The position numbers and the translations under genes were made by a program. Below the pieces are notes generated by a model. That model made no database searches. It was given only the letters and a program-made list of their open reading frames with translations, and was not told the origin of the DNA. A DNA stretch of 64,000 nucleotides from a bacterium. Lineage in GTDB: Bacteria > UBA8248. Positions 24,809 to 49,230 of this stretch are shown here, in pieces; the first letter of the stretch is position 1, and every line of letters begins with the position of its first letter. Where the stretch lies: contig OZ244713.1 of assembly GCA_965218885.1 (NCBI GenBank), positions 240,601-304,600 on the forward strand. Direction: 5' to 3'.

Positions 24809-24825
24809 CGTTTTGATTACATATT
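24809..24825. repeat. 17-bp direct repeat, left copy (candidate attL), immediately upstream of integrase 1
   Basis: cgttttgattacatatt at 24809-24825 matches 49214-49230 exactly. Partial similarity continues for about 9 nt beyond. It is AT-rich in a GC-rich genome. Confidence 0.45.
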
Positions 24826-24837
24826 TGAGGAGGGAAG

Positions 24838-26013
24838 ATGCCGAGGAGAAGCGAACTCAAGCTCACCAAGCGCACCGTAGACGCGCTCGAGGTCGAGGAG
24901 AAGGACGCCCTCTTCTGGGACCGGGAGCTGGCGGGCTTCGGTGTGCGCGTTCACGCCACGGGCAGGAAGGCCTACGTGGTGCAGTCCCGGGGACCCGGGG
25001 GTCCCAAACGCGTGACGCTCGGCCGTCACGGGGAATTGTCCGTCGATGAAGCGAGGAAACAGGCCGCCCTCATTATCGACCGCATAAAGCGCGGCGAGGA
25101 GCCGCTAGCTCAACCGTCCGGGGCGGAACCCACCGTGGCGGGATTCGCCGAGCGCTTCATGCGCACCCACGTGCAGAAACACTTGAAGCCTGGCACCGTC
25201 GCGGCGTACCGCACCGTGCTCGACAAATACATCCTGCCGGCCCTGGGCGGGATGGGACTGGAAGAAGTCGGCGGGGCGGAAGTCACGGAACTTCATCACC
25301 GGCTAAGGGACACGCCCACCCGGGCCAACGCGGCGGTCCATCTGCTGTCGCGGATGTACACCTTGGCCGAGGTGTGGGAGTTGGTCCCGCCCGGGCGCAA
25401 TCCCTGCCTCTCGGTGCGCCGCTACAGGACGCGGGCGCGCGAGCGGTTCCTGACGCCGGAAGAATACCGGCGCCTGGGCCGTGCGCTTAAGCAAGCGGAG
25501 ACGGAGGGCGCGATATGGCCGCCCGCCCTCGCGGCTATCCGGCTGCTCGTCCTGACCGGATGCCGCAGGGGCGAGATACTGAGTCTCGGGTGGGACGACG
25601 TGGACCGCACTGCGGGGGACTTGAGGCTCAGGGACGCCAAGGCGGGTCCCCGCATGGTCCCCCTGACAAAGCCGGTGCTTCGCGTGCTGGAAGGCATCAC
25701 ACGCTCCTCGGGAAACCCCTGGGTGATAGTGGGACAAAGACCGGGAAAGCGCCTGACGGGCCTGCACCACTACTGGCGGCCCGTCCGGGAGCGGGCGGGG
25801 CTTCATGACGTGCGCATTCATGACCTCAGACACTCCTACGCGTCGAGGGCGCTGGCGCTGGGCGAGAGCCTCTACACGATAGGCAAGCTGCTGGGCCACG
25901 CGAGCGTGGCGACGAGCGCGCGCTATGCGCACCTGATGCGCGAGGCCGAGAGGGAGGCGGCGGTACGGGTGGGCGGGAGCATCGGCGCCCACATCAAGAG
26001 CCGGGGGAGGTAG
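24838..26013 (+). CDS. Tyrosine-type site-specific integrase (P4-like, N-terminal Arm/DUF4102-type domain)
   Basis: The N-terminus has LTKRTVDAL...FWDRELAGFGVRV. The catalytic region has HDLRHSYASRA...LLGHASVATSARYAHL, carrying the R..H.R..Y residues. Confidence 0.85.
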   Translation: MPRRSELKLTKRTVDALEVEEKDALFWDRELAGFGVRVHATGRKAYVVQSRGPGGPKRVTLGRHGELSVDEARKQAALIIDRIKRGEEPLAQPSGAEPTVAGFAERFMRTHVQKHLKPGTVAAYRTVLDKYILPALGGMGLEEVGGAEVTELHHRLRDTPTRANAAVHLLSRMYTLAEVWELVPPGRNPCLSVRRYRTRARERFLTPEEYRRLGRALKQAETEGAIWPPALAAIRLLVLTGCRRGEILSLGWDDVDRTAGDLRLRDAKAGPRMVPLTKPVLRVLEGITRSSGNPWVIVGQRPGKRLTGLHHYWRPVRERAGLHDVRIHDLRHSYASRALALGESLYTIGKLLGHASVATSARYAHLMREAEREAAVRVGGSIGAHIKSRGR

Positions 26014-26014
26014 A

Positions 26015-27190
26015 GTGCAGATGAAGAAGCCCACAATGAAAACACTGTCGAACCGCGCGGTCGCGAAACTGAAAGTGGAGAAAGACACGGTCTTCTGGGA
26101 TCGCGACCTCACCGGCTTCGGCGTGAGGGTCTATCCCACCAGGAGCAAGGTGTATATCGCGCAAGCGCGGGGACCGGAGGGTCCCAGGCGCGTGGCGGTG
26201 GGCCGTCACGGGGTGATCAACGCCGATGAGGCGAGAAAGCGCGCCGCCCACATCATCGCGCGTATCAAGGCGGGCGAGGAGGCGGTTCCCGAACCGATGA
26301 AGCCGGCGGGAGGCCCCACTGTGGCCGAATTATGCGCGCGCTACCTCTCCGAATACGTCTCCGTGCGGTGCAAGCCGGGCACCGCCGCGCTCTACCGCTC
26401 GGTAATCAACCGCCACGTCCTGCCCGCCTTCGGGAAAATTCCGCTGGCGCGGCTCTCTCGCGCGCAGGTGGCGGAATTCCACCAGGGCCTCTACGAGACG
26501 CCCGCTGTCGCGAACATGGCGCTCCGCACCCTCTCCTCGATGTACGAACTCGCACGGGAGTGGGAACTGGTAGCAGACGGATTATCAAATCCCTGCCGCT
26601 CCATTATGAAATACCCCGAGCGCAGGCGCGAGCGGTTCCTGACGGATTCCGAGTTCATCCGCCTGGGAGAGGCCCTCGACGAAATGGAGACCCGGGGCGG
26701 TGCGTCCGCGTCCGCGGTGGCGGCGATCCGGCTCCTGGCGCTTACCGGGTGCCGTAGGAGCGAGGTCCTCAGGCTGCGCAAGGAGGACGTGGCGCTCGAA
26801 GCGGGCGAGTTGAGGCTGCCCGATTCCAAGACGGGCGCGCGGGCCGTCCCGTTGCCGCCGCAGGCGGTCGAGCTTCTCGCGAGTCTCCTGCGCGCCCACG
26901 GTGGTCCCTGGGTCATCCCGGGGAGGAAGCCGGGGACGCACCTCGGGAACATCGACGAGGCCTGGCGGGCGATAAGGGAGCGCGCGGGCCTCGAGGGCGT
27001 GCGGCTGCACGATCTGCGCCACTCCTGGGCCTCGCGGGCCCTTGCGCTCGGCGAGTCGCTCCCCGTGATCGGGAAGCTCCTGGGCCACAGCAAGATGGAA
27101 ACGACGGCGCGCTACGCGCACCTCGCGCGCGATTCGGCGCAGGAGGCGGCCGAGCGGGTCGCGGCGAGCATCGCGGAGGACATGCCGTAG
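26015..27190 (+). CDS. Tyrosine-type site-specific integrase, paralogue in tandem
   Basis: Same architecture as the first integrase (FWDRDLTGFGVRV...HDLRHSWASRA...LLGHSKMETTARYAHL). It starts 2 nt after the stop of integrase 1. Confidence 0.85.
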   Translation: MQMKKPTMKTLSNRAVAKLKVEKDTVFWDRDLTGFGVRVYPTRSKVYIAQARGPEGPRRVAVGRHGVINADEARKRAAHIIARIKAGEEAVPEPMKPAGGPTVAELCARYLSEYVSVRCKPGTAALYRSVINRHVLPAFGKIPLARLSRAQVAEFHQGLYETPAVANMALRTLSSMYELAREWELVADGLSNPCRSIMKYPERRRERFLTDSEFIRLGEALDEMETRGGASASAVAAIRLLALTGCRRSEVLRLRKEDVALEAGELRLPDSKTGARAVPLPPQAVELLASLLRAHGGPWVIPGRKPGTHLGNIDEAWRAIRERAGLEGVRLHDLRHSWASRALALGESLPVIGKLLGHSKMETTARYAHLARDSAQEAAERVAASIAEDMP

Positions 27191-27642: not shown

Positions 27643-27695
27643 ACCGCCGGTTTCCGGCCGGCCTGTCGGGATGCAAGGGGCGCGTCAGCCGGAAT

Positions 27696-27813: not shown

Positions 27814-30650
27814 CTATAACTCCATCCCTCGATCCGATCGGGTCTTCTCCATCACCGGCGACCGCCCCTCGCCCGGATGCAGCGCTTCCTTCGACCTCTC
27901 CGCCCCGATGCTCTCCGCCTTGCCCGCACCTATCGCCTCGAGCGCCGCGATGCGCTCCCCCGTCGCGGCTTCCAGCCGCTCGCACAGGGCCTTCGCGTCG
28001 TCCGTCACGAGTTCCGCCCGGTCCCGGGCGCGGCTGATCTCGACGTAGAGCGTCTTCTGGTTGGTGAGGTCGGGGTGGTTCGCCTCCATCGCCGCGATGA
28101 CGGTGTCGACCGTCCGGCCCTGGAAGGCGTGGACGGTCGAGGCCCATGCGCGGTCGACGTGGCGAAGCTGCGGGTCGCCGGCGGTCATGCCGAGCGTGCG
28201 CCCGTCCTCGATGCCGAAGGTGACGCGGCCGTTCATGACGCGCGTCACCTCGGCGGCCTGGCTGTTGACCAGACCGCGGTCCTTGTCGTTCCGGGTCCAG
28301 CGGACCTTGTCGCCTATGCGCAGTTCCATCCGCTCGACCTTGTATACCTCGACACCGCCGCTTCTCGCCGCGATTCGGCCCGGCTCCCAGCGGACTTCCC
28401 CTCCATGTCTGCCTTCGAGGATGACCGCGCCGCCCTTGTGATCGACGCCCGCCACGCGCAGCTCGTCCCCCTTCTCGACGCCCAGGCGCTTGTAGGGGCG
28501 GTGGAAGGCGACGACGTCGCCGGGTGAATAGTTCGCGGCGAGCGATTTCTCGGGATTCGTATAGCCGCGCGAGACGAGGCGCTGCGTGAGGAATGCCGGG
28601 CCGCAGACGACGCCCTCCCGGACCAGGCGCTCGCGGACGATGGCGTTGATCTTCTCGCGAATCTTATGGCTCGGCGCCATGAGCCCCGCCCGCTCGCGCG
28701 CCTCGGGCGGGAGCGCCAGCCAGCGCGCGGCGGCTGCGCCCGCGAGGTTGTCGGGCTTCACTTCGGCCACGTTCGAACCGAGCTTATCGAAGGCGCGCCT
28801 GACGTCGCCTGAGAGAGTGGCCTCGACGGCCGCTTTCAGGTCCGGGTCGCGCTGGCGCATGATCTCGTCCATGGTCGCCGTCTTCATGCCCGCGGCCTGA
28901 AGCTGCGCGAAGGGTTTGCCGGCGTCGACGGCGTCGAGTTGTTTCGCATCGCCGACGAGCACGACCCGGGGAAGGCGCAGGACCTCCGAGATACGGAGCA
29001 GTTCGCGCACCTCGCGCGTGGAACGAGGGAGCCCTCGTCCACGACGAGAGCGGTCTTCGCGTAGCCCGCGCGCAAGTGTTTTTGGGCTTTCCTCTTCAGG
29101 CGGCCATCGGCGACGTCCGCGTTTCGCGTGAGGAAGCGCTGGAGCGTCTCGCTCTCGATGCCGGCCTCGGCTTCGAGTGTCCGCGCGGCCGAGGCCGAGG
29201 GGGCCAGGCCCCGGACCTCGTAGCCGCGTTTTTCGAAGAGGGCGCGGGCGCGGCTGAGCATCCTGGTCTTCCCGGTCCCGGCGTAGCCCTGCACGCCCAC
29301 CACGCGGTCCTTTTCCGAGAGGATCAGCTTGACCGCGTCCCTTTGGCCCTGCGTCAGCGGTCCCTTGCGCAGATGCGCGCTCACCATCCAGCCCCGCATG
29401 GCGGGCGCGCCTCGCCCCCTGCCTGCCTCCACGAGGGCGATGGTCTCGCGCTCTGCCGCCGCCGCCTTCTCCGTCGTGAGCATGTCCTTCACTCCGGGCA
29501 GGTCCGCCGCGTGCAGGACGCCCGTTTTTTCGAGTCTCGCCACCTCGCGCACAGCATTCGCCATCGACACCGCGCCGGGCCGCCAGGCGAGCGCGCCCGC
29601 GAGCAGAGCGGCGCGGTCGAAGACGGCCTTGCGCTCCGCGAGATGCGCCACGGCCCATTCCACGGCTTCCCTCGCGGGTTCGACGTCCGCCGCGCTCCGG
29701 CCGGCGTCGCGGGATAGGGCGCTCCTCTCTATCGCCTGTGCCTTGAGGGTCCCGGCGTCGAAGCCCAACTCCTTCGCCTGCTTCTCCCAGGAGGCCATGA
29801 GCATCGCCTTGTCGGCCTCCCGCTTGCGATCCCTCGTCATAAGCGCGACCCGCTGGGCTGCGCGCTGGTTCTCCGCCGTCGCACCCAGACCCCGCTCGGC
29901 CATCGCGGCCTCGATCTCCGCCCGCCGGGTCGAGAACGCCTCGATCACTTCTCTGGGGACGCCCGCGACCTCGAAGCGCCCGTCCGCGTGGGTCTTCTCC
30001 ACCCGGTAGCCGAACCCTTCGAGGCCCCGGGCGAGTTCGGTCCGGTAGAGGGCGCCGATCAGCATCTTCTGGGCGTAGAGCTTCTCGTTGGACATCGTGC
30101 GCCACTTGCCGTCCGTCCCCCGGACCATGTTGGCGATAACCGCGTGCGTGTGGAGCAGGGGGTCGAGGTTGCGCGACGTATCGTGCCGGAAGGTCGCGAT
30201 GACGCTCTTCTGGTCTCCCGCCCGGACCATCCGTCCGGTCCCGGGCTCGCTCATCCTGGTCTCGGCGACGTTTCGCTCGACCCAGGCCAGGGTGCGCGCC
30301 ACGGCCACTTCGTGTGCCCAGATCGCGCGCCCGTCGCCACCGAGGTAGGCCAGCAGTGAGACGGACTTGGGCGCCGAGAGGGTGAGGTCTCGGCCGGGAC
30401 GGTGGTGGAACGACCCGTCCTTGCCCGGGCGCCCGAGCCTGCGCCCCGAACCGTCCGGCACTACGCCCTCTAGCACCGCGCGGAGGGTATCGGGGTCGAC
30501 CGGACCCGTGAGTCCCAGGTCCTCCGCGCCCCTGCCGCGCCAGGCGCTCGCATCCCGGTGGTTCGGGTCGTCCTTCGCGTAGTAGTCGTCGCGCTCGAAG
30601 TAGGAGACACACTGCGCCGGCGCGACGACGGCGCCGATGGATGCCACCAT
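27814..30650 (-). pseudogene. TrwC/TraI-type (MobF) conjugative relaxase-helicase, reading frame broken near 29025
   Basis: The N-terminus MVASIGAVVAPAQCVSYFERDDYYAKDD...HDTSRNLDPLLHTHAVIANM is the TrwC relaxase domain with its HxH motif, followed by a P-loop GYAGTGKT. The frame breaks after ALVVDEGSLV. The shifted frame then reads TREVRELLRISEVLRLPRVVLVGDAKQLDAVDAGKPF and continues to the helicase C-terminus. The break is at a short T/A run. ATG at 30650 is preceded by GAGGAG. Confidence 0.8.
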
Positions 30651-32741: not shown

Positions 32742-33314
32742 CGCGCCTGCACGTGCCGCCGGCCGTCGGGAGTACGTACTGCCGTCCTGCCGCCGGGGGG
32801 GGGCGACCGGGGGGAGGGTCTGACGACCGCCGCCCTGCTGCGCAGCCGTCCCGCCGCCGGGGGGGGTCGCTGGCCGGACTCGCCTCCCCAGCGTGAAGTA
32901 CCCGGGACTCCGGACCGGGGGGGCGCACGCCCGTGCAATCGGCTCGACGAGTTCGCCACCGGCGACGAAGACGCCGAGCGCAATCCCGGCCCGCCAGTCG
33001 GCACGGAGTCAACCCGGCATCCATCGTTTCCGGCATCCCAGCGCCGGCAGCGCCGACGACCAGCCTCACCGGCGGTGACAAGAACGTCGCCGCCCCGAAA
33101 TCCCACCGCTCGATTCGTCTCCGTTTCCACGTGCCCCATCCATCCGAATCCCGGACCTGACGCAAGACCGGCGCGGTATGCGGGCGGTCCTTATCGGCTG
33201 TGAACCTGCCCGGGAGAGGCAGAGAGAAGCAGGGGACCGGGCAAATGCCCGGTAGGGAGAGGGAGACCGTCTCCCTCCCGACGCCGGGCGCGACAACCCG
33301 AGAGGAGGCCTGGC

Positions 33315-33450
33315 CATGTTCGAGAACGACTACGAAGTCGACGTTCCCACCGCAGACGAACTGCTCGCCGAGATCGGACTCGACGCGTACACGATCCGCG
33401 TCATCCGCGACGAGACGAAAGGCGAGGCGGAGGAATTCAGGAGGGAATAG
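33315..33450 (+). CDS. Small ORF (45 aa) with a strong RBS upstream of ssb
   Basis: GAGGAGG lies 7 nt upstream of the ATG at 33315. It encodes MFENDYEVDVPTADELLAEIGLDAYTIRVIRDETKGEAEEFRRE. It is below the ORF-track size cut-off. Confidence 0.35.
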
Positions 33451-33527
33451 GGCGAACCGGGGGGTGGAGAGAAAGGCTCTCCCCCTCCCATCACTTTTTC
33501 ACACTCACACCACGAAGGAGAATCACA

Positions 33528-33962
33528 ATGGCATTCGGACTCAACCGCGCGGAACTGATCGGGCGTCTCGGCGCCGACGTCACCATCAACCATCTCGCGA
33601 GCGGGGGACGCGTCGCTAACCTCTCCATCGCCACCGACGAGGGCTACGTCGATAAGCAGTCCGGCGATCGGGTGGAGAAGACCGAGTGGCACCGGGTCGT
33701 GACGTTCCAGCCCGGGCTGGTCGACATGTTCGAGAAGCACGCGAAGAAGGGCCGCCTGATCTACGTGGCGGGCAAGCTCCAGACCCGCCGCTGGAAGAAG
33801 GACGATGAGGACTCGGATCGGTTCTCGACCGAGATCCTCATCGCGCCGGGCGGACGCGTGCAGTTCCTCGACAAGGTGAACGGGAACGGCAACGGCGCGC
33901 ACCCAGAGACGGCCGATGTGGCGGCCACAGCGGGCGTAGTGGGCGAAGATATTCCATTCTGA
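33528..33962 (+). CDS. ssb: Single-stranded DNA-binding protein
   Basis: The OB-fold opening MAFGLNRAELIGRLGADVTINHLASGGRVANLSIATDE is present, followed by a Gly/Asn linker and the acidic tail ending DIPF, which is the canonical SSB C-terminus. Confidence 0.9.
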   Translation: MAFGLNRAELIGRLGADVTINHLASGGRVANLSIATDEGYVDKQSGDRVEKTEWHRVVTFQPGLVDMFEKHAKKGRLIYVAGKLQTRRWKKDDEDSDRFSTEILIAPGGRVQFLDKVNGNGNGAHPETADVAATAGVVGEDIPF

Positions 33963-33974
33963 TCACCCCGGGGG

Positions 33975-34007
33975 GGTCGGCGTTACGGCGCCGGCCCCTT
34001 TTTTTGC
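33975..34007 (+). terminator. Rho-independent terminator after ssb
   Basis: gggtcggcg-ttacg-gcgccggccc is a 9-bp stem with one G-U pair, followed by a T7 run (ccttttttt). Confidence 0.65.
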
Positions 34008-34944: not shown

Positions 34945-34965
34945 GGACAACGAAAGGAGTGAACG

Positions 34966-36571: not shown

Positions 36572-36697
36572 ATGGTGCAGACGACACAAAAGAACATTCG
36601 CTTCACGCCGGAACAGTGGTAATGCGTCGAAAAAGAGGCGCTCGAGCGTAGGATAAGCCCGAATCGACTGGTGGTCAAGCTAGTGATGGAGACTTAA
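36572..36697 (+). pseudogene. CopG/RHH (ribbon-helix-helix)-like small ORF interrupted by an in-frame TAA
   Basis: It reads MVQTTQKNIRFTPEQW-(TAA at 36620-36622)-CVEKEALERRISPNRLVVKLVMET. The pattern of a beta-strand (IRFTPEQ) followed by two helices is RHH-like. AAAGGA lies upstream. Confidence 0.3.
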
Positions 36698-39398: not shown

Positions 39399-39462
39399 AA
39401 GAATCAGGGCCGAACTTAATCGGGAGAGCACGGCAATCGGGGAAAAGCTAAGGAGTTTAATC

Positions 39463-40836: not shown

Positions 40837-40943
40837 GTGAACACCCGGCGTACGAGTGAAGTTGGAAATGGACGAACTGGTTCCATGGAAATTGTTCGGA
40901 GGGCGATATCTTTCCACTCAAATCAGGATGGAGGAAAAGGACA

Positions 40944-41576
40944 ATGAAGATCACATCACGTTTCAGTTCCATTGGGGCCGTTGTCGTGGCCATCGTGGCT
41001 GTCGTAGCGCTCCAGGCTGCGGGGGTGGGCTCATACGATGCGTCGGCGGAGTCTTATATGAAGGATCTCGACATCCGTCAGATACCTATGGCGAAAATCC
41101 AGCCGGCAAAGCCGAGCGGAGCGAGCGCCGCTGCGGGTCTGGCCGTCAACGCCAGCGTAAACCGGGCAAACCGTAAGTATAAACATGGCGAGAACGTCGT
41201 GCTGACTGTCAAGGCCACGGAAGACGCCTATATCTGGGTGTTTGACACGGGAACCAGCGGCAAGGTGCATCAGATATTCCCCAACCGTTACGAGAAGAAT
41301 AATTTCGTGAAAGCCAAAGCGGCGCTTCGTATTCCCGGAAAGGGATCTAAGTATATGCTTACGGCTTCCCGTCCCAAGGGCGCGGAGTTGATCACGGTCA
41401 TCGCGTCGAAAACAAATGCCCCTTTGACCCCGACGATGATCGCCAAAGGTAACGGAAGCAGTCCGTTCCTGGCATTGAACGGTACGGCGCAATCGGTGGC
41501 GAAGGATTTGTCGATCACCTTGCGCAAAAAGCATCGTGTCTGGGCCAGGGCTCAGCAGGTTATTCTTATCGACTAG
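40944..41576 (+). CDS. Secreted DUF4384-domain protein
   Basis: The N-terminal signal/TM segment is FSSIGAVVVAIVAVVALQAAG. The DUF4384-type core is DAYIWVFDTGTSGKVHQIFPNRY. Confidence 0.6.
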   Translation: MKITSRFSSIGAVVVAIVAVVALQAAGVGSYDASAESYMKDLDIRQIPMAKIQPAKPSGASAAAGLAVNASVNRANRKYKHGENVVLTVKATEDAYIWVFDTGTSGKVHQIFPNRYEKNNFVKAKAALRIPGKGSKYMLTASRPKGAELITVIASKTNAPLTPTMIAKGNGSSPFLALNGTAQSVAKDLSITLRKKHRVWARAQQVILID

Positions 41577-41606
41577 ACATCGAATCGGTACCTGGAGGGA
41601 CGCATC

Positions 41607-43643
41607 ATGAGGCTCTTATCGCGTTTCCGATCGTTGTTTCCCGTATCCGCAGCTTCCCTTGGGGTGATGACCGTCGTTTGCCTGTATTGCATGGTTGTGC
41701 CGACACCGCTGGCAAACGGGGGGGAGATCGTCATGTCCGACGACATCATCCTTCAAATGAAGCCCAAGCCTCGTACGAGAGGGATCGCTTCGGAGTCTAC
41801 AAAGACAAGTCCGGGCAGAGTTATTCTTCCAGCCATCCAATTTGAGATCGATTCAGCCCGGTTCACGCGTACCGCCTTGGCGCAGGTGCGGGAACTGGGG
41901 AAAGCCCTCAAATCCGACGTTCTCAGAACGTTTATGTTTGCGGTGCAAGGCCACACGGACAGCACTGGGAGTAGCCCATACAATCGGGGTTTGTCCTTGC
42001 GGCGCGCCCGCGCGGTGACGCGCTACCTTAAGGGCGAAATGGGCGTGGTTGGAGGCCGGCTGATCGAAGTCGGGCTGGGAGAGAGCTTCCCGATCGACGG
42101 GATTCCGACGACGGACGCGAGAAACCGGCGTGTCGAAATAACAAAACTTGGAGACGGGGCGCCCGCCGAAGATGTAAGGCGTAACCGGAGGCGGGCGCTT
42201 CTCATCGGAATCGACAAATACGGGCACGTGTCTCCCTTGAAGGGCCCGGTGAACGACGCCAAGGACATGGCGAACTTCATTACAGGACGCGGAGGATTCA
42301 AGAGCAGTGATGTCCGGCTTCTGCTGGATGCAGAGGCGACAAAGAAAAATATTCTCGCTACAGTCAAGAAATGGCTGGTCGACGGAACAAATGCCGGAGA
42401 TGAGGTGTTCCTGTTCTACAGTGGCCACGGTTTTCAACAACCCGACTTGGACGGAGACGAAAAAGACGGCCTGGATGAAACACTGGTCCCGGTCGATGCA
42501 TTTGTGGATGAGGACGGCAAGATAAAAGGAATGATTACGGACGACGAACTCGGAGTGCTTTTGGGTCGTCTGTCCGATCGCCGCGTGCGTGTAGTGGTAG
42601 ATGCCTGCCATTCAGGCACGAGTGCCAGAAGCGCGGGAGGCTCGGAAAGTTGGAAATACGTCAAGACGCCTCGCCTGCCGGATGGTTCACCGATTCGAAT
42701 CGCCCGTACGCGTGGCCTGGGGGGCAAGGAAGAGTCTCGGCAGGAATCCCTTTTGGTGTCGAACGATCCCGATTTCGCCATCTGGACGGCCGTCAGGTCA
42801 GACCAGAAAGCCCTGGTTGACAGAGAAGTCATGGGTCGTTCAGGCGGTGGAAGTGTGTACACGAGACGTCTGCTCTGGGGAGCGCGCGATGGAAAGGCTG
42901 ATGAGAACCGCGACGGCATCGTGACGATGGAGGAACTCTACCGTTATGTGCTCAAAGAATCCGAGGAGTATTGCAAGCGATATTCCGATGATTGCCGCCT
43001 CGGCTTGACGCCGCAAGTTCAGGTGGCGTCGGGCCGGCTCGAGATTCCCGCGTTTGGAAATGCGTACGCGAGTTTGCCGCGAAACGCCACTCTTGCAAAA
43101 GATATTTTAGTACGTCCGTCGAGTCGACCGGCATCAAGAGGGAAAAGCGGCGTCCGGTTGCGAATCGACCCGGGCTCGAATCTCGTGCTCGGGGCCAATC
43201 TGGATATCATCGTCGAAAGTGACCGCAAGGGATATCTTGTATTACTGGATATAAATGCAGCTGGAGAATTGGTTCAGATATTTCCCAATGAAGGGAGCTT
43301 ACGTAGCGGTGTTTCCTCCTTGATACGTCCAAGCGAGCCTGTACGGCTACCAGGAGAGAAAGCCGGGTTTCGCTTTCGAGCAACCCCGCCAGCTGGTTCT
43401 GGCCTCCTTGTCGCCGTTGTGACCCAAAAGAATGATCGGGTTTGGGAGTTGGCTTCGCGGCATAAAGATCTGAGTGTGGTGCCGTCTCCGGCGGCCTATC
43501 TCGTTGAGATTGGAGAAGCCCTCCGTGCTGGTTCTTCAGTACCCAATAATGCCCGTGGTTCTGGTTGGAGTGTTGCGACGCTACAATACAAAATCGCTTT
43601 ACCCGATTCGGGCCGAAATAAGTCATCAAATGATGCGAGATGA
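41607..43643 (+). CDS. Multidomain envelope protein: N-terminal TM, OmpA-like peptidoglycan-binding domain, caspase-like peptidase C14 domain, C-terminal DUF4384
   Basis: The OmpA_C-like block is HTDSTGSSPYNRGLSLRRARAV. The caspase His-Cys dyad lies in FLFYSGHGF...RVVVDACHSGT. The DUF4384 core is GYLVLLDINAAGELVQIFPNEG. RBS GGAGGGA lies upstream. Confidence 0.75.
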   Translation: MRLLSRFRSLFPVSAASLGVMTVVCLYCMVVPTPLANGGEIVMSDDIILQMKPKPRTRGIASESTKTSPGRVILPAIQFEIDSARFTRTALAQVRELGKALKSDVLRTFMFAVQGHTDSTGSSPYNRGLSLRRARAVTRYLKGEMGVVGGRLIEVGLGESFPIDGIPTTDARNRRVEITKLGDGAPAEDVRRNRRRALLIGIDKYGHVSPLKGPVNDAKDMANFITGRGGFKSSDVRLLLDAEATKKNILATVKKWLVDGTNAGDEVFLFYSGHGFQQPDLDGDEKDGLDETLVPVDAFVDEDGKIKGMITDDELGVLLGRLSDRRVRVVVDACHSGTSARSAGGSESWKYVKTPRLPDGSPIRIARTRGLGGKEESRQESLLVSNDPDFAIWTAVRSDQKALVDREVMGRSGGGSVYTRRLLWGARDGKADENRDGIVTMEELYRYVLKESEEYCKRYSDDCRLGLTPQVQVASGRLEIPAFGNAYASLPRNATLAKDILVRPSSRPASRGKSGVRLRIDPGSNLVLGANLDIIVESDRKGYLVLLDINAAGELVQIFPNEGSLRSGVSSLIRPSEPVRLPGEKAGFRFRATPPAGSGLLVAVVTQKNDRVWELASRHKDLSVVPSPAAYLVEIGEALRAGSSVPNNARGSGWSVATLQYKIALPDSGRNKSSNDAR

Positions 43644-43950
43644 CATGAAATTTCAAAAAGCAGCCGTTGAATGTCGCTCCTCCTTCACCGTGCTCGTTGG
43701 AATTTTCTGTTTTTTGGTCATAGTTCAATACATTCCCTTGGTTGCGTATGCCGAGGGGTCGGGTGAAATGAGAGATTCCATCCGGAAACTCACAGAACCG
43801 GTTATCAGATCCGTTCGCTCCGCTACTCGACCTACCCATAAGACTACCCATGACGACGCTGGTCTTGTCAAAGACACGCCTGAGGATGATTCTCGAAAAA
43901 AAGGTGTTTCGTCCACTTCGGATAGAAATCAATCTTCTGACGCCCAATGA
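43629..43950 (+). CDS. Small secreted protein duplicating the N-terminal leader motif of the WD40-caspase
   Basis: MMRDDMKFQKAAVECRSSFTVLVGIFCFLVIVQYIPLVAYAEGSGEMRDSIRKLTEPVIRSVRSATRPT... aligns with the N-terminus of the downstream protein (ADAQGFGRLRHSIRNLTRPVIRSVRTVIRPL...TRDEAGPV). Its start overlaps the stop of the upstream caspase gene. Confidence 0.5.
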
Positions 43951-43951
43951 T

Positions 43952-46396
43952 ATGAAGCGCCAAATAACAGCTGATAGGCATTGCTCCTGTTCCATGGCGG
44001 TCATTGGGCTATTTTGTCTCTGGGTTGTGACGGCATGCATTCCACCTGCTGCGGACGCCCAGGGATTTGGTAGATTGAGGCATTCCATTCGAAACCTCAC
44101 ACGCCCGGTCATCAGATCGGTTCGCACCGTCATTCGTCCCCTCCTCAATATCACCCGCGACGAAGCCGGCCCGGTCACGGAGCTACATACGGATAATGCC
44201 CGGAGTTTTCTGTTCACCGTGCTTGGAGATGGAAGCGCCAGGTTGTGGGACCTTCGGCGTGGAGTGCAATTGGGTGGGGCTTTTGGAAGTGAACTCGCTT
44301 CAGGCGCCATCCGTGGAGAGGGGAACGCCTTGGAAGCCATAGCCGTCAGCAGAGACGGCTCGTCGATCTCCATACGTCCAGACGGCTCGGTCCAGCAGAT
44401 TGGCGAGAAGATTGAAGGAATCGACCCAGTAGTCATACCCGTTCTGTCGGGGAATGGGAATGTCGTAGCGTATCGTAGTGAGGTTGACGGCGGCTGGTAT
44501 GTGAAGCGGGATGGTTCCGATCAGGCCGAACGGCTACCTGGTGCCGATCCTGATAGCCGACCTATCCTCTCCTCGGATGGAGTGAAGGTCGCTTACCGAA
44601 CAGTCCGGGGGACGATTGCCGTGAAAGGCGCGCTTCGCGGTGGGACGGCAGAAATCGAAGGTTGCGAGAGCGAAATTCCGGTAACAGCGGGAGCCTATAC
44701 ACCTGATGGCGAGCGAGTGATATTAGGGGATGAAGAAGGCAACATTTGCGTTTGGCGCATCCCCGAACATGAAGTTCCGAGGCGGATTTTCGTGCAAGAG
44801 GCAGCTCATTCCGGCTCGATTCGACTCCTCGTGCTTGACCAGGATGGAATCCATGTCTCTACAAGTGGAGAAGATGCGGCGGTAAACATCTGGGTCGTGA
44901 CGTCTGAAATTCGCCCAGTGGCTTCGCTGAAGCTGGCCATAGAGTCCGCAACTTCGCTTTTGATGGACGTTAGCAGAAGGTGGGTTTTCGTCGGAGAATC
45001 GAGAGGAACGGTTGGAATCTATTCGTTCAATGAACTGGCGCGCATCGCGCGCTTGATTTCCACGGATGTCGGATGGGCAGTTCTTGACCGAAAAGGCCGA
45101 TTCGATGGACCTCAAAATGGTGTCGATGCGCTGGTATGGGCAGGTGAGACAGCGGCGCAAACTCTCCCGGTCGATGCGTTCTCCGAAAGCTATTTCGAGC
45201 CTGGACTGATGGGGAAACTTGGTGGCAAACCGCAACCTTTCCTGAACGAAGACGTTCGCGATCTCTCTGAAGACGGCTACATTGCGCCGCCGAGTGTCTC
45301 GATCGATCCGATTGACAGTCTTCAGGTCGATGCCGAAGGGCGTTCAAGGGTCAATATCCGGTTGGCCCCGAACTATCCAAGGCGGGACGTGCTCGAAATC
45401 AGGCTATATCACAATGGAAAACTCGTTCCTGCCGAGAAGATGGTCTCCGATCCTACTGGCAAGATCATCGAATATGCGATTCGACTCCTACCGGGAGAAA
45501 ACACCTTCAAAGCGATCGGGATCGGTCCGGGAGGGGTCGAAGGCCAACCGGCGTTAGTGACGGTGGCGGTTACCGAACCTGAACTGCGTCGGCCCAGGAT
45601 GCAGGTAGTCGCCATCGGTATCGGCGATTACGTTAGGCCTGACTGGAAGCTCGAATCCACTCGTAACGACGCAAATGCCGTCGTCTCGGCGCTGCGTAAC
45701 CGGAGTGGCAACTTGTACAGTGACGTGGACGTGGTTTCATTGTTAGATTCTCACGCCAAGGCGACCATGATTGAAAATCACATTTCCGGAAAATCGCAAT
45801 CGCCCCAGGATGTTCTGGTGGTCTTTTTTGCGGGTCACGGCTATGCGTTGCAGGAGAAGGGGAATAAGGGTAGCTGGGAATGGTATCTTCTCCCGTACAC
45901 GCATGCTTGGAACACGAGGACAGAGGGAAAAATCGAGATGATACGACGGTATGGGATTCCCAGTCGTCGCTTGATGCGTTTGCTGACGAAAACCCAGGCG
46001 CAGCGCGTATTCCTCATCCTCGATTCGTGCCGCTCCGGCGCGGTTGTTGACGCCGTTTCCTCCTCCACGGGAAGGGCGCTCGACGATGCCGTCGGACAAA
46101 AAACTTTGCGCAGAATCGCGCGTGTGGGCGGCATTCACATCCTGGCGGCTTCGCGAGCGGATGAGGATGCAATCGAACTGCTCTCCGTGCCACACGGCGC
46201 TCTGACCTATCTGATCCTCGAGGGTATCCGGGGGGCGGCGGATGAAAATCTAAACGGGAAGATTTCTGTTGGTGAGATCATTAGATATGCGACGAGGGAG
46301 ATGCCCCTTCTCTCCCAGCGGCTTGTCAAAGAGACTATCAGCCAGAAGCCCGTCGGCTATTCACGCGGGGCGGACTTCGCGCTCGCCGGATTGTAA
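43952..46396 (+). CDS. Secreted WD40-repeat (beta-propeller) protein with C-terminal caspase-like peptidase C14 domain
   Basis: The signal peptide is MKRQITADRHCSCSMAVIGLFCLWVVTACIPPAADAQG. WD-like repeats include GDGSARLWDL, EEGNICVWRIPE and AAVNIWVV. The C-terminal caspase His-Cys dyad lies in VVFFAGHGY...VFLILDSCRSGAV. Confidence 0.75.
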   Translation: MKRQITADRHCSCSMAVIGLFCLWVVTACIPPAADAQGFGRLRHSIRNLTRPVIRSVRTVIRPLLNITRDEAGPVTELHTDNARSFLFTVLGDGSARLWDLRRGVQLGGAFGSELASGAIRGEGNALEAIAVSRDGSSISIRPDGSVQQIGEKIEGIDPVVIPVLSGNGNVVAYRSEVDGGWYVKRDGSDQAERLPGADPDSRPILSSDGVKVAYRTVRGTIAVKGALRGGTAEIEGCESEIPVTAGAYTPDGERVILGDEEGNICVWRIPEHEVPRRIFVQEAAHSGSIRLLVLDQDGIHVSTSGEDAAVNIWVVTSEIRPVASLKLAIESATSLLMDVSRRWVFVGESRGTVGIYSFNELARIARLISTDVGWAVLDRKGRFDGPQNGVDALVWAGETAAQTLPVDAFSESYFEPGLMGKLGGKPQPFLNEDVRDLSEDGYIAPPSVSIDPIDSLQVDAEGRSRVNIRLAPNYPRRDVLEIRLYHNGKLVPAEKMVSDPTGKIIEYAIRLLPGENTFKAIGIGPGGVEGQPALVTVAVTEPELRRPRMQVVAIGIGDYVRPDWKLESTRNDANAVVSALRNRSGNLYSDVDVVSLLDSHAKATMIENHISGKSQSPQDVLVVFFAGHGYALQEKGNKGSWEWYLLPYTHAWNTRTEGKIEMIRRYGIPSRRLMRLLTKTQAQRVFLILDSCRSGAVVDAVSSSTGRALDDAVGQKTLRRIARVGGIHILAASRADEDAIELLSVPHGALTYLILEGIRGAADENLNGKISVGEIIRYATREMPLLSQRLVKETISQKPVGYSRGADFALAGL

Positions 46397-46404
46397 ATCA
46401 AGAG

Positions 46405-47334
46405 GTGGCGCTGCGCCCTGCACCGGATACTAGTTATGTGGACAAGAGACGTTACTCTCAAGTGTTCTTCGTTGTTCTTGCATGCATGATGATTGGTTGC
46501 ACAGCGTTGGGGTATAAGGGCGCATCTGGAATCTGTCCGCTTCCGGCATGTTCGGATTGGAAATATCGACGCTTTATACACAACGGAATTCCGGTAATCG
46601 GTTTCCAGAAACCGGGTCGTCGCCTAGGCCGCATGGTCGTCTATATCGAGGGGGACGGAAATGCGTGGAGTAGTCGCTCGCGGGTTTCGAGTGACCCCAC
46701 CCCGGATGATCCGGTCGCTCTCCGTTTGGGGTTGCGTGATCCGGACCCTGGCGTTCTTTATTTGGCGCGGCCCTGCCAATATGTCGGCAGGAAGTTCATC
46801 GCCAGTTGTAATCCTTCACTCTGGACAGCTGCGCGATATTCACTGGAGGTTATCGAAGCGATAGATCGCGCAATCACGTCTTCAAAGCTGTCTGCCGAAG
46901 ATCGTCTCACACTCGTCGGATATTCCGGTGGAGGTGTCATCGCGACGCTCTTGGCGTCGCGCCGTCTGGATGTGGATGAATTGGTCACGGTCGCTGCGCC
47001 TTTAGACATCGCCGCCTGGACAAACCACCACCGGGTCTCACCTCTCAAAGATTCCCTCAATCCGTCCGAGCGCGTGCCCGCCTACGGTAAGGCGCGTGAA
47101 TTTCACTTCCATGGCGGACGGGACCTGGTGGTGCCTCCCGTGGTTGTTGAGCAGTATCGCCGACAAGCGTCACGAGCAAACGTCCATTTTTTCACTGTTT
47201 CCGAGTTCGAGCATCAATGTTGCTGGGTGCGCGACTGGCCAAAGTTCTTGTCGATGATTCGAGAACGCAGAATGCATTCAAAGGTGTGTGTAACCCCTAA
47301 AATGGGAGAAGTTTCACGTTCTTCAGAACGTTAA
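46405..47334 (+). CDS. Alpha/beta-hydrolase lipoprotein (GxSxG nucleophile elbow)
   Basis: The hydrophobic leader ends in VVLACMMIGC, a lipobox-like sequence. The GYSGGG motif is followed by a region with conserved D and H. The likely start is the GTG at 46438. Confidence 0.6.
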   Translation: MALRPAPDTSYVDKRRYSQVFFVVLACMMIGCTALGYKGASGICPLPACSDWKYRRFIHNGIPVIGFQKPGRRLGRMVVYIEGDGNAWSSRSRVSSDPTPDDPVALRLGLRDPDPGVLYLARPCQYVGRKFIASCNPSLWTAARYSLEVIEAIDRAITSSKLSAEDRLTLVGYSGGGVIATLLASRRLDVDELVTVAAPLDIAAWTNHHRVSPLKDSLNPSERVPAYGKAREFHFHGGRDLVVPPVVVEQYRRQASRANVHFFTVSEFEHQCCWVRDWPKFLSMIRERRMHSKVCVTPKMGEVSRSSER

Positions 47335-47465
47335 TGCTGCTAGATATTTGAACTTCTGCTGCTGGTGGCTTGGTCCAAGTGATTTTAATTTTCTTTTACC
47401 GGAATATTGAGATCTGACTCGCTCGGCAGACCAAAGACTGTTAGCGAAACGACTAGGAGGACACC

Positions 47466-48527
47466 ATGAAAACGAAATCCTTAACTGCAATGCTATCGGC
47501 TTCTTTGCTATTCATGCTCATGCCGGAATACATACACGCTGATGAGAAACTCTCCATTAAGGCCTACAGGCACCGAGGATGCATTCTTCCTCCTACTAAT
47601 ATAAACCGTCTGGCAAGAAATTCGCACATAGGTCTTGAGATGGAGTTTTCATATCCAAAAGACCCTAAAAACACTAAACAGATTGACACTGCAATTCTAT
47701 CTTGTATGGGAGACGTTGAGGAGAAGCGATTGAGTTGTAATGATGCGGTTGAGTTGCCATGGTCGGCCCTGGAAGAACTAAATTCTTTGGAACCCTTTGC
47801 GGGAGCAAAATGTGAGGACCAGTTCAAGAGTGAGGTCCGTAAGTGTTTGGACTACTACGAACAGAAGACATCGAAATGTCACGCTTTAGGACGTGGGGTT
47901 CCTTTGTCGAAGGGGGCATCCTTGTGGGAAGAGTTGATACCAGACGATAGTCCTAGTGGCAACTATGAAGAACTGCCACCAAGTGACGACCACCTCTATA
48001 AAACCCGGAAAGACCAGAAAGGAGGCCCAGCGGACAATTGGAAAAAATGGGTAGAGGGGAACCTGCCAGGGAATAAAATGGGAGATATGGGGATAGATAG
48101 AAAAGGGGGAGATATGCCCTCCTCGGGCTATTCTGGAGCAAAATTCCGAGATCCGAACCCCACGGGCAAATCTGGAGTAGACTTGAAAGACCTGATTCGG
48201 CTAGAGGAGCGAGAAATGCTCGAAGAGGAGAAAAAGGAGTATGGGACCCTAGGTTCTCCGGGTGGTCCAATAAACCCTGGAGGTGCAATGAATAAGAAGA
48301 GGAACGATGCTTGTGAGCGAGCTAAACGTAGAGCTGCGCAGACAATACCCCGCATCACTCCGAGCAGATCAATGTGCACAACCTATCGAACTGCTTTACG
48401 TATGTACGAAAGTGTAAGACGGATCCTGAGCAGTAACGGCTGCCCCGCGCACGAGGTAAGGCAATACGATCAGGCGATTGCGCAAACAAAGCTCGGAGTG
48501 CGCGCGGTCTGTGCGGATATTCGCTAA
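47466..48527 (+). CDS. Secreted cysteine-rich hypothetical protein, lower GC than surroundings
   Basis: The signal peptide is MKTKSLTAMLSASLLFMLMPEYIHA. The protein has about 14 Cys, a Gly/Pro/Lys-rich central region, and no recognisable domain. Confidence 0.5.
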   Translation: MKTKSLTAMLSASLLFMLMPEYIHADEKLSIKAYRHRGCILPPTNINRLARNSHIGLEMEFSYPKDPKNTKQIDTAILSCMGDVEEKRLSCNDAVELPWSALEELNSLEPFAGAKCEDQFKSEVRKCLDYYEQKTSKCHALGRGVPLSKGASLWEELIPDDSPSGNYEELPPSDDHLYKTRKDQKGGPADNWKKWVEGNLPGNKMGDMGIDRKGGDMPSSGYSGAKFRDPNPTGKSGVDLKDLIRLEEREMLEEEKKEYGTLGSPGGPINPGGAMNKKRNDACERAKRRAAQTIPRITPSRSMCTTYRTALRMYESVRRILSSNGCPAHEVRQYDQAIAQTKLGVRAVCADIR

Positions 48528-49213
48528 TGCCGCTCCTGCAGTCGGTTTGGCTACCGTATTTAGGCCTTTTCTGGATTCCGCTATGTCCTTGCTTTTGGTG
48601 CGGGTGAACTTGGTGGACGCCCAAGTTTCTTCTCGCTATTTTGATGAGCGCTCCAAAGTATGGGGCGCATCGCATTCTCCGGATCTCATGCCCGCACACG
48701 ACACCGCGTTGCACGAATCGTCCTGTAGCGTCACCATCTTCAGTCTAGAACTGGATTCTATAGGCTAAGTAATCTTTTCGTGCTTTGATATAGACGTAGA
48801 TCCTAAGAACAAGTCCAAACCATCCAGCACGATTAAAAATAACGGAAAAACTTCGTAGGGTATGTGGCCTCTAAAGAGCTTGCCATGTAATTGTTCGTCG
48901 CCATATTCTTCGTCGGGCTGGAGTGTGAACACATCGACCAGTGTTCATTGCGTACTAATACTGAGATGAGCTAAAGCGGGCTTATCCGGAGGCTAAGTAG
49001 CAGAACTTGCCCCCACTCAGGAGATTATGGTTGCTATAATCGACTACGCTGCGGGCGGGATCTGAGCCGTCATTCGGCGCGAGTTGGTGGTTCCCGGATG
49101 AACGATGTGGGGTGCCGAAGCGTGAGCGCAATCAAGCCGTCACAAACCGGACTTTGGAAGATGTTCTGACAGGGACGCTCCAGGATGCGCGGGAGTTTGA
49201 ATTCCTCCGCTTC

Positions 49214-49230
49214 CGTTTTGATTACATATT
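49214..49230. repeat. 17-bp direct repeat, right copy (candidate attR)
   Basis: cgttttgattacatatt is identical to 24809-24825. It lies in an AT-rich non-coding stretch just before the MMPL gene. Confidence 0.45.

What the first reader, a model, noticed from the sequence alone, without database searches (positions are those of the whole stretch)
24809..49230. 17-bp exact direct repeats bracket the integrase-to-cargo region (putative attL/attR)
cgttttgattacatatt occurs at 24809-24825, 12 nt before the integrase 1 start. It occurs again at 49214-49230 in the AT-rich stretch after the cargo. Everything between is mobile-type backbone plus cargo, and housekeeping genes (pyc and the MMPL transporter) lie outside. 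This defines a likely element of about 24.4 kb and its insertion site.
Basis: seen in the sequence. Interest (0 to 1): 0.55.

Follow-up and report, generated by a model that had tools for sequence, protein, structure and literature searches.

The report
Shared motif inside island ends
The two identical 17-base repeats are real and lie near both ends of a ~24.7-kb integrase-carrying genomic island, but they sit about 190 and 125 bases inside its ends, within larger conserved repeat units, so they are probably not the points where the island joined the chromosome.

Summary
Observation confirmed. CGTTTTGATTACATATT is exact at 24809-24825 and 49214-49230, far beyond chance, with a third 16/17 copy at 62869-62885 (-).

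The attL/attR interpretation does not hold.

- The left copy lies 189 nt inside the island. Seven independent insertions of sister islands share homology starting at about 24620 (GGAATTTCTGAAAAATACGAT), with unrelated DNA further left.
- The right copy is the centre of an intact ~250-nt dispersed intergenic repeat (49102-49354). The same unit occurs at 10 or more other loci with no integrase nearby, and where neighbouring ORFs were examined they encode ordinary genes.
- Homology of the flanking MMPL gene to relatives stops at 49354, not at 49230.
- Of 39 pattern hits in genome and metagenome collections, 11 are the integrase-leader type and 8 are the dispersed-repeat type. None is a hybrid.
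- A ~99%-identical relative has four copies of the motif, none next to an integrase.

What is there is a ~24.7-kb tandem-integrase, probably mobilizable island. It belongs to a family that has multiplied in Defluviicoccus-like alphaproteobacteria, and its right end is truncated or rearranged. The shared motif (invariant TTTGATTAC between short inverted arms) is most likely a protein-binding site. That function is inferred, not shown.

The parts
24809..24825 (+). 17-mer copy A, in the integrase-1 leader, 12 nt before the ATG and 189 nt inside the island's left end
   Evidence: Exact match. It lies in a 23-nt block, CGTATGCGTTTTGATTACATATT, that is invariant in 12 sister copies.
49214..49230 (+). 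17-mer copy B, the centre of dispersed-repeat copy B
   Evidence: Exact match. It is flanked by inverted arms and conserved sequence on both sides.
62869..62885 (-). 17-mer copy C (16/17), the centre of dispersed-repeat copy C
24620..24808 (+). Island left-end segment: terminal motif GGAATTTCTGAAAAATACGAT (24620-24640), one CGATAAAT unit (24637) and the integrase-1 leader
   Evidence: Homology among independent insertions begins here, with unrelated flanks to the left. Its identity tracks int1 identity (r=0.77; 83% vs 60% for flanks). A weak promoter-like site lies at 24697-24726.
24838..27190 (+). Tandem tyrosine integrases int1 (24838-26013) and int2 (26015-27190), 52-53% identical to each other
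   Evidence: Pfam Arm-DNA-bind_3 + Phage_int_SAM_3 + Phage_integrase in both; tblastn
27814..30612 (-). 932-aa AAA_30/UvrD_C_2 protein resembling the helicase part of TraI/TraA relaxase-helicases
   Evidence: Pfam. NCBIfam TraI_TIGR 121 bits and TraA_Ti 76 bits, both below their cutoffs.
33168..36750 (+). Conserved backbone module: SSB (33528-33962), DUF4326 (34573-34944), YAcAr/SLOG (34966-35916). The conserved backbone ends at about 36750.
   Evidence: Pfam. 81-86% nucleotide identity to L026-L031 and L052.
37467..48527 (+). Low-GC variable cargo: DUF4384 proteins, OmpA-caspase, WD40-caspase, an alpha/beta hydrolase and unknowns
   Evidence: GC 0.48-0.61; Pfam, PADLOC, NCBIfam. Sister islands carry different cargo.
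49102..49354 (+). Dispersed ~250-nt repeat, full copy B (short form, lacking the terminal motif). Its right edge coincides with the end of MMPL homology.
   Evidence: nhmmer E=2e-66; alignment A3; junction
62744..63019 (-). Dispersed repeat, full copy C
   Evidence: nhmmer E=7.5e-62. The orthologous copy is in L002 at 93-95% identity.
20305..20496 (+). Dispersed repeat, partial copy D (left half plus degenerate core). It is a ~190-nt indel absent from the syntenic relative L022.
16981..17088 (-). Dispersed repeat, right-half-only copy
   Evidence: nhmmer, profile positions 153-259, also present in L022; sequence
49355..51410 (-). MMPL transporter gene fragment: C-terminus present apart from the last two codons, about 64 N-terminal residues missing
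8452..8570 (-). Second copy of the pyc-3' flank 'F' followed by only the first 12 nt of the island terminal motif. An integrase C-terminal fragment lies nearby at 8792-8936 (+).

Best explanation
The two 17-mers are subterminal, not junctional. They are the most conserved core of two different conserved units that lie just inside the ends of a ~24.7-kb tandem-integrase island (about 24620 to about 49354).

- At the left end, the motif sits in the leader of integrase 1, 189 nt inside the island terminus. That terminus is a quasi-palindromic motif, GGAATTTCYGAAAAATWCGAT, followed by CGATAAAT units that look like arm-type recombinase sites.
- At the right end, the motif is the centre of an intact ~250-nt repeat. 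There it lies between short inverted arms: A(C/T)CCGCTTCCG - TTTTGATTACATATTG - CGGAAGGCGG(G/A)T.

The same repeat is scattered through these genomes as a free-standing intergenic element.

Shown: the positions, the boundaries, the unit structure and the copy distribution.

Inferred: the shared core (invariant TTTGATTAC) is a DNA site bound by the same protein in both contexts, either one of the island's two integrases or an accessory or host DNA-bending factor. It would help assemble the recombination complex on the island's arms and/or control integrase-1 expression, but strand exchange would not occur there. On this reading the crossover takes place at the terminal motif.

In this window the island's right terminus has been lost. 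Copy B is a short form without the terminal motif, and it is fused to a gene fragment.
For: Left boundary:
- Independent insertions share a start at about 24620, with unrelated DNA to the left.
- The 182-nt left segment co-diverges with int1 (r=0.77; 83% mean identity vs 60% for flanks).
- The syntenic relative L022 lacks the integrases but keeps the same pyc-terminator/terminal-motif junction.

Right boundary:
- MMPL homology to L032 and L033 (90%) ends at 49354, which is also the end of the repeat profile alignment.

The units are intact:
- All 12 integrase-leader copies have left segment + motif + integrase.
- At least 10 dispersed copies have left half + motif + right half. No integrase was found in the loci carrying the strict-pattern copies, and where neighbouring ORFs were examined they encode ordinary genes.
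- There are 0 hybrids.

Nature of the site:
- The long forms of the dispersed repeat in L012 and L022 end in the reverse complement of the terminal motif, preceded by tandem ATTTATCG units at about 10-11 nt spacing.
- Inverted arms flank the motif. One arm position covaries (CG in 6 sequences, UA in 5). There is no global RNA fold on either strand, and no Rfam hit. This favours a DNA-level site.
- Sister island L052 also has dispersed-repeat copies in the same orientation 13-15 kb downstream of its integrases.
Against: - No binding protein is identified, and the function is pure inference.
- No direct repeat of 7 nt or more exists at the comparative boundaries.
- The island's two ends are not significant inverted repeats in this window, so the crossover site is not demonstrated.
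- pyc and MMPL are not adjacent in any relative, so no clean empty site was seen.
- Copy B could be a pre-existing chromosomal repeat next to the island and not part of it. Such repeats are frequent: 9 profile hits in 277 kb of loci that were not selected for the motif.
- 17 nt (23 nt among leader copies) of perfect conservation is long for a single arm-type site.
- The left-segment/int1 identity correlation could partly reflect host lineage.
Confidence: 0.5

Rival explanations
1. The 17-mers are the attL/attR identity segments. Recombination between them excises a 24.4-kb circle carrying repeat left half + 17-mer + integrase, and leaves one copy in the chromosome.
For: - The repeats are exact, direct, non-random and bracket integrase to cargo, with the integrase adjacent.
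- The motif sits between inverted arms, like a core-type recombinase site.
- Family members include half copies broken just right of the core, and a mirrored right-half / core / right-half arrangement. This suggests past recombination near the core.
- No other direct repeat is found at the boundaries.
Against: - Both copies are 'parental' intact units, not hybrids.
- The 182 nt left of copy A is conserved, with a sharp common start, in the independent insertions.
- The predicted empty target was never seen, although every one of the 12 leader-type motifs is followed by an integrase.
- Perfect-core dispersed repeats are never occupied.
- A complete, 99%-related chromosome has 4 motif copies and no leader-type copy.
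- The right flank's homology ends at 49354.
- In OZ242260, three islands have the strict leader motif but no strict dispersed copy exists anywhere in the chromosome. In sister island L052 the two ends match at only 13 of 17 positions.
Confidence: 0.1
2. The dispersed repeat is an ordinary host intergenic repeat (REP/BIME- or MITE-like) with no role in the island. Copy B merely lies beside the island, whose right end is then about 48.5-49.1 kb. On this reading the integrase leader acquired a ~40-nt piece of such a repeat in the past.
For: - Solo copies lie between ordinary genes on both sides.
- The repeat is dense in these genomes: 5 hits in this window and 9 in 277 kb of unselected loci.
- Copy D is a simple ~190-nt indel relative to L022.
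- Similarity between leader and repeat extends only about 36-45 nt.
Against: - The 17-mer is the most conserved stretch in both contexts, and the 23-mer is invariant even in L001, whose int1 is only 68% identical. This argues for a retained function, not a relic.
- Relatives with MMPL lack a repeat at that junction.
- The near-identical genome lacks both copies A and B.
- Long-form repeats end in the island's own terminal motif, with the same CGATAAAT units.
- L052 repeats the layout.
Confidence: 0.2
3. The motif is a regulatory target on RNA. The 17-mer lies in the integrase-1 5' leader between a conserved CCTCC and the GGAGG ribosome-binding site. Dispersed repeats transcribed from the opposite strand would give antisense RNAs that pair with it and set integrase translation according to copy number.
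For: - The location is next to the ribosome-binding site.
- A promoter-like site upstream (24697-24726) would put the motif in the leader.
- CCTCC/GGAGG pairing is kept in 8 of 8 leaders.
- A minus-strand extended -10-like site in copy B points toward the motif.
Against: - No covariation supports the leader helix.
- Single-sequence folds are not better than shuffles, and several copies fold differently.
- The reverse strand of the repeat has no conserved fold, and no intrinsic terminator was predicted in the copy B region.
- There is no Rfam match.
- No expression data exist.
Confidence: 0.1

Closest known systems
Integrative (mobilizable) genomic islands driven by P4-type tyrosine integrases with an N-terminal arm-binding domain (lambda/P4 paradigm; e.g. 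the ICEclc integrase type, from my own knowledge)
   Same: - Integrase genes at one end, with Arm-DNA-bind_3 + SAM-like + catalytic domains.
- Conserved backbone plus variable low-GC cargo.
- Short repeated units (CGATAAAT) next to a quasi-palindromic terminus, as expected of arm-type and core-type sites.
- Conserved sites some 100-200 bp inside the ends, as in lambda attP arms.
   Different: - Two tandem paralogous integrases (52% identical) instead of one.
- No tRNA target.
- No flanking direct repeat detectable at the boundaries.
- Many copies per chromosome (at least 4 in OZ242260).
- The subterminal motif is shared with a free-standing dispersed repeat.
GInts, SEs, RIT elements and Tn554: islands or transposons with several tyrosine recombinases (PMC5385486, PMC10214605)
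   Same: A recombinase operon at the left end, variable cargo, and a short AT-rich conserved far end (the GInt 'tripartite structure', PMC5385486). Several recombinases act together. Multiple copies can occur per genome.
   Different: - The defining gene sets are absent. There is no third recombinase-like gene or ginD, and no tfp or srap. Only two recombinases are present, and both carry arm-binding domains.
- The 10-17-nt flanking direct repeats of GInts and the 13-19-bp terminal inverted repeats of SEs were not found here.
REP/BIME-type dispersed intergenic repeats with a central protein-binding site between inverted arms (E. coli RIP/RIB elements carrying an IHF site; recalled from memory, so a lead and not a test)
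   Same: An intergenic repeat of about 100-250 nt in many copies, with inverted arms flanking a conserved central motif whose reverse complement contains AATCAA preceded by an A/T-rich stretch.
   Different: - The IHF consensus WATCAANNNNTTR is only half met, because the TTR part is absent in every copy.
- The repeat is longer and modular (left and right halves occur separately).
- Its long form ends in the island's terminal motif.
- Its core is shared with an integrase leader.

Membership tests
attL/attR of a site-specific integrative element | The direct repeat lies exactly at the boundary between element DNA and conserved chromosomal flank | tested here: not met
   The boundaries are at about 24620 and about 49354. 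The repeats lie 189 nt and 124 nt inside them.
attL/attR of a site-specific integrative element | Each att site is a hybrid of target-derived and element-derived halves, and related genomes without the element carry one copy at the empty site | tested here: not met
   Both copies are intact units seen elsewhere. There were 0 hybrids among 39 collection hits. L022 has a different structure at the same pyc junction, and L032/L033 have no motif after MMPL.
attL/attR of a site-specific integrative element | The repeat is essentially unique to the element's ends | tested here: not met
   3 copies in the window. 4 in OZ253442 and 4 in CBDCMA01, away from integrases.
P4-type tyrosine integrase | N-terminal Arm-DNA-bind_3 (DUF4102) domain, SAM-like core-binding domain and C-terminal Phage_integrase catalytic domain | tested here: met
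   Both int1 and int2 pass the Pfam cutoffs for all three domains. The catalytic residues were not inspected.
Integrative mobilizable element (IME) | Its own integrase plus a relaxase/oriT, without a full mating apparatus | tested here: inconclusive
   Integrases are present. The 932-aa protein matches only the helicase part of TraI/TraA, below cutoffs, and no relaxase domain or oriT was identified. No type IV secretion genes lie in 24.6-49.4 kb.
GInt | ginABCD operon: three recombinase-like genes plus a small fourth gene | tested here: not met
   Only two recombinase genes are present, and the next ORFs are on the opposite strand with no recombinase domain. Definition from PMC5385486.
Strand-biased circularizing integrative element (SE) | intA-tfp-intB-srap operon and 13-19-bp imperfect terminal inverted repeats with a 6-bp spacer | tested here: not met
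   No gene lies between int1 and int2 (the stop at 26013 is followed by a start at 26015). The ends are not significant inverted repeats. Definition from PMC10214605.
MITE | Terminal inverted repeats and target-site duplication around an insertion | tested here: not met
   The copy D indel relative to L022 has no duplication and no inverted ends. Only the long forms carry one terminal motif.
Structured non-coding RNA gene | A conserved secondary structure with covariation, or a match to a known family | tested here: not met
   Rfam gave 0 hits. RNAalifold gave -0.8 and -1.8 kcal/mol on the two strands of the repeat. The leader scored -16.6 with a covariation term of only -0.26.
IHF-binding repeat (RIP/RIB-like) | A central match to WATCAANNNNTTR between inverted REP arms | tested here: not met
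   WATCAA is present (AATCAA on the reverse strand), but the TTR position reads GAA, GTA or CAT in all copies (sequences). Inverted arms are present.

The most novel reading that the evidence does not exclude
The ~250-nt dispersed repeats are recombination sites for the island's second integrase, in an integron-like or satellite arrangement. The motif next to int1 would be the docking site, and the scattered repeats would be partner sites at which cargo segments or integrase-less mini-islands are exchanged.

This reading would explain several observations:
- There are two paralogous integrases.
- The repeat's left and right halves occur separately and in mirrored form.
- Repeat edges are recurrent rearrangement breakpoints (copy B against MMPL; copy C against IS110 versus a different flank in L002).
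- L022 carries a one-gene, integrase-less insertion bounded by such repeats at the same pyc junction.
Probability: 0.12. Interest if true: 0.7.

Novelty: new variant of a known kind. Interest (0 to 1): 0.38.

Why it matters
For annotation: taking the nearest exact direct repeat as the att site would misplace both ends of this island by 120-190 bp. It would also predict the wrong circular junction and the wrong empty site, so primers designed on that basis would fail.

Biologically: the window exposes an undescribed island family with tandem integrases. It carries caspase-type and other defence-like cargo, and it has multiplied to several copies per chromosome in Defluviicoccus-like bacteria from soil and wastewater-type metagenomes. 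Its integrase leader shares a perfectly conserved motif with a genome-wide intergenic repeat. If that motif proves to be a common recombinase or host-factor site, it would link island mobility to a host repeat family. It could also explain why these regions are rearrangement hot spots.

Tried and rejected
1. IS110 link. Copy C lies upstream of an IS110 transposase, so I considered that the repeat is the IS110 non-coding end (bridge-RNA region). Rejected: no locus with the repeat has the transposase, and L002 has copy C without it.
2. Terminal inverted repeats of the island. Left end versus reverse-complemented right end scores 12, against a shuffle mean of 11.6. The terminal motif occurs only once in the window.
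3. A short true att core at the comparative boundaries. No direct repeat of 7 nt or more is present.
4. A hairpin sequestering the ribosome-binding site in the int1 leader. It is seen in 4 of 7 single folds with insignificant z-scores. It is invariant in the alignment, so it is uninformative.
5. The repeat as a structured or antisense RNA. No consensus fold on either strand and no Rfam hit.
6. The left segment as a multi-copy RNA gene target, like a tRNA. There is no tRNA, covariation is weak, and no unoccupied copy exists in any genome scanned.
7. Solo repeats as right-end remnants of decayed islands. Their left neighbours are ordinary metabolic or transport genes.
8. A clean empty site. pyc relatives (L022-L025) and MMPL relatives (L032, L033) never have the two genes adjacent.
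9. Exact-protein look-ups of my pyc and MMPL ORFs failed, probably because the called start codons differ.
10. An IHF consensus match. Only half the consensus is met.
11. PADLOC gave only generic 'caspase' hits for the cargo.

Full report
**1. The observation**

- CGTTTTGATTACATATT occurs exactly at 24809-24825 and 49214-49230 on the plus strand. With up to two mismatches there are three matches in the window, against 0.01 expected.
- The third match is a 16/17 copy at 62869-62885 on the minus strand.
- The left copy ends 12 nt before the ATG of the first integrase (24838), with GAGGAGGG in between.

**2. Gene content**

- pyc is at 20876-24340.
- It is followed by two tandem tyrosine integrases (24838-26013 and 26015-27190). 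Each has Arm-DNA-bind_3, SAM-like and catalytic domains, and they are 52-53% identical to each other.
- A 932-aa protein matches the helicase part of TraI/TraA, below the curated cutoffs.
- SSB, DUF4326 and a YAcAr/SLOG protein follow.
- From about 37.4 to 48.5 kb there is lower-GC cargo with DUF4384 proteins and two caspase-domain proteins.
- An MMPL gene lies at 49347-51434 on the minus strand.
- There is no tRNA and no Rfam family.
- The organism is an alphaproteobacterium. Its nearest named relative is Defluviicoccus (pyc 88% identical).

**3. The 17-mer is part of larger units**

- Repeat finding and self-BLAST show that 49157-49231 and 62942-62868 are 84% identical over 75 nt. A weaker copy lies at 20388-20454.
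- I scanned one genome per species with CGNNNNCGYTTTGATTACATATT. This gave 21 stretches, 7 of which are chance hits in unrelated taxa. The rest form two classes.
- 'Leader-type' copies (L001, L006, L007, L010, L015, L019, L021) have the motif 12-14 nt before tandem integrases. Three of them lie in one chromosome, OZ242260.
- 'Dispersed-type' copies (L002, L004, L009, L012, L017 twice, L018, L020) have the motif in the middle of a ~250-nt conserved intergenic unit. No integrase was found in these loci. Where neighbouring ORFs were examined, they encode ordinary genes: a RarA-like ATPase, a RidA-like protein, a sulfatase, transporter components, a KBL-like enzyme and an IclR-like regulator.
- A profile of this unit finds full copies in the window at 49102-49354 and 63019-62744. 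It also finds a left-half copy at 20328-20475 and a right-half copy at 17088-16981.
- The same scan of metagenome contigs added four leader-type copies and no dispersed or hybrid copies.

**4. The left boundary**

- I aligned the regions upstream of the integrases from independent insertions. Homology starts at one point, GGAATTTCYGAAAAATWCGAT (window 24620), and DNA further left is unrelated. L006 has the same start, separated by a ~1.9-kb insertion.
- The 182 nt between this terminal motif and the leader block CGTATGCG+17-mer is 83% identical on average between copies. Its identity tracks int1 identity (r=0.77). The 200 nt further left sit at background, 60%.
- L022 is syntenic with window 11164-24644 at 92-95% and has a 97% identical pyc, but no integrases.
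- At the same junction with the pyc terminator, L022 carries the same terminal motif. There it continues into an inverted dispersed-type repeat with a one-mismatch motif, and then a small insertion with one gene.
- The 17-mer at 24809 is therefore 189 nt inside the island.

**5. The right boundary**

- The MMPL protein aligns to 91%-identical homologues from their residue 73 to the end. Its C-terminus faces the island and is essentially intact, while about 64 N-terminal residues are missing.
- At DNA level, homology to L032 and L033 spans window 49354-51410 only.
- In those relatives the stop codon is followed by a terminator-like hairpin and other genes. In the window the last two codons are replaced, and the sequence runs straight into the right edge of repeat copy B.
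- The end of the repeat profile alignment (49354) and the end of flank homology coincide, 124 nt to the right of the 17-mer.
- Neither pyc relatives nor MMPL relatives have the two genes adjacent, so no simple empty site exists.
- The MMPL fragment itself lies between two breakpoints, so the right side has been rearranged.
- Copy B is a 'short form'. Long forms in L012 and L022 continue for about 90 nt through ATTTATCG units into the reverse complement of the island's terminal motif. That motif occurs only once in the window.
- No direct repeat of 7 nt or more is present at the two comparative boundaries, and the two ends are not significant inverted repeats.
- I conclude that the island spans about 24620 to about 49354 and that its original right terminus is missing.
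- If copy B were instead a neighbouring chromosomal repeat, the island would end between 48.5 and 49.1 kb. In either case the 17-mer is not at a junction.

**6. Why the att reading fails**

- If the 17-mers were crossover points, each copy would be a hybrid of element and target halves.
- Instead, copy A is the same intact unit (left segment + motif + integrase) seen in all 12 leader-type loci.
- Copy B is the same intact unit (left half + motif + right half) seen at 10 or more integrase-free loci.
- The two predicted recombinant forms were never found.
- OZ253442 is 99.7% and 99.0% identical to the window over 3.2 kb and 0.9 kb. It has four motif copies, all dispersed-type, and no leader-type copy.
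- OZ242260 has three strict leader-type copies and no strict dispersed-type copy.
- In the more divergent sister island L052, the integrase-proximal motif (CGATTTGATTACGGTTT) and the distal repeat copy (CGTTTTGATTACTTATT) agree at only 13 of 17 positions.
- Exact identity between the two ends is thus not a family property. The 17/17 match here reflects strong conservation of the motif in both contexts.

**7. What the motif may be**

- Across 12 dispersed copies the invariant core is CG.TTTGATTAC. It is flanked by 5-bp inverted arms in which one position covaries (C-G in six copies, T-A in five).
- There is no global RNA structure on either strand.
- Family members include halves broken just to the right of the core, and a mirrored right-half / core / right-half arrangement in L022.
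- In the leader, the motif lies between an invariant CCTCC and the GGAGG ribosome-binding site. That helix shows no covariation, and single-sequence folds are not significant.
- A weak promoter-like site at 24697-24726 would place the motif in the int1 leader. A minus-strand promoter-like site in copy B points at the motif.
- The most economical reading is a DNA site bound by the same protein in both contexts. That protein could be a recombinase (arm-type or accessory site about 125-215 bp from the terminus, as in lambda-type attP arms) or a DNA-bending factor. This is inference. The IHF consensus is only half matched.

**8. The family**

- YAcAr homologues at about 90% identity are numerous, with seven or more in chromosome OZ241875.
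- The SSB-DUF4326-YAcAr module is shared with loci that carry conjugation genes.
- Sister islands L028 and L052 have the same left part but different cargo. L028 carries a peptidase S8 and a caspase-ankyrin-FGE-sulfatase protein. L052 carries NERD, DUF900 and AbiE.
- Known multi-recombinase islands (GInt, SE, RIT, Tn554) share the general layout, but their defining genes are absent here.

**9. Verdict**

- The island is real.
- The att-site interpretation is not supported.
- The shared motif is an interesting but functionally unresolved subterminal site.

Noticed in passing
window 61404-62752 (-); also 54229-54287; L052 16270-16592: An IS110-family RNA-guided transposase (285 bits against a cutoff of 140) begins about 180 nt beyond the right edge of dispersed-repeat copy C. 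IS110-like fragments also abut a repeat copy in L052, and another lies at 54.2 kb. These insertion sequences may target the repeat.
   Followed up: partly
window 49347-51434 (-), breakpoint ~51410: The MMPL transporter gene lacks about 64 N-terminal residues and its last two codons are replaced. It is a gene fragment between two rearrangement breakpoints, not an intact housekeeping flank.
   Followed up: yes
window 8452-8936: Remnant of another island. An integrase C-terminal fragment (8792-8936, +) lies near an inverted second copy of the ~110-nt pyc-3' flank (8463-8570). That flank copy is followed by only the first 12 nt of the island terminal motif. A low-GC stretch (0.47) follows at 9-10 kb.
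   Followed up: partly
window 20305-20496: Partial repeat copy D, upstream of pyc, is a ~190-nt indel relative to the 94%-identical syntenic contig L022. It has no target duplication.
   Followed up: yes
window 37467-48527: The cargo encodes an OmpA-caspase fusion, a WD40-caspase fusion (both weakly 'EACC1-associated caspase'), three DUF4384 proteins and a hydrolase. It contains an internal 300-nt tandem duplication (39864-40163 / 40350-40649, 88%). Sister island L028 also carries a caspase-ankyrin-FGE-sulfatase protein.
   Followed up: partly
window 33168-36183; L026-L031: The SSB-DUF4326-YAcAr module is 81-86% identical to the same module in loci carrying conjugation genes (TraE, TraL, ParB-helicase, Toprim). 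This suggests module exchange between these islands and conjugative elements.
   Followed up: partly
window 54662-64000 vs L002 (OZ253442 1432001-1440000): In a ~99%-identical chromosome, the DegV/copy C segment lies about 3 kb upstream of the segment equivalent to 54662-57813. This is the opposite order to the window, where IS256- and IS110-type elements lie between them. It indicates a recent rearrangement.
   Followed up: no
window 59877-61003: Two adjacent ORFs match the N-terminal half of an IS256/Mutator-family transposase (a disrupted copy). The same element occurs in L027, L029 and L030 at 80-90% identity.
   Followed up: no
L022 13679-15716: At the same pyc junction, the relative carries a ~2-kb integrase-less insertion. 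It holds one 414-aa gene (weak autotransporter-like hit) and is bounded on the left by an inverted dispersed repeat and on the right by a mirrored right-half / core / right-half repeat.
   Followed up: partly
L002, L009, L017, L018, L020 downstream of the repeat: Five solo repeat copies continue into a further shared sequence (...GGCCGTTCACACCAYCATGGCG...), with the CACCCGCCGCACCACCCACAACACC tail seen in four of them (L002, L009, L018, L020). The repeat family therefore has a longer variant or a preferred neighbouring repeat.
   Followed up: no
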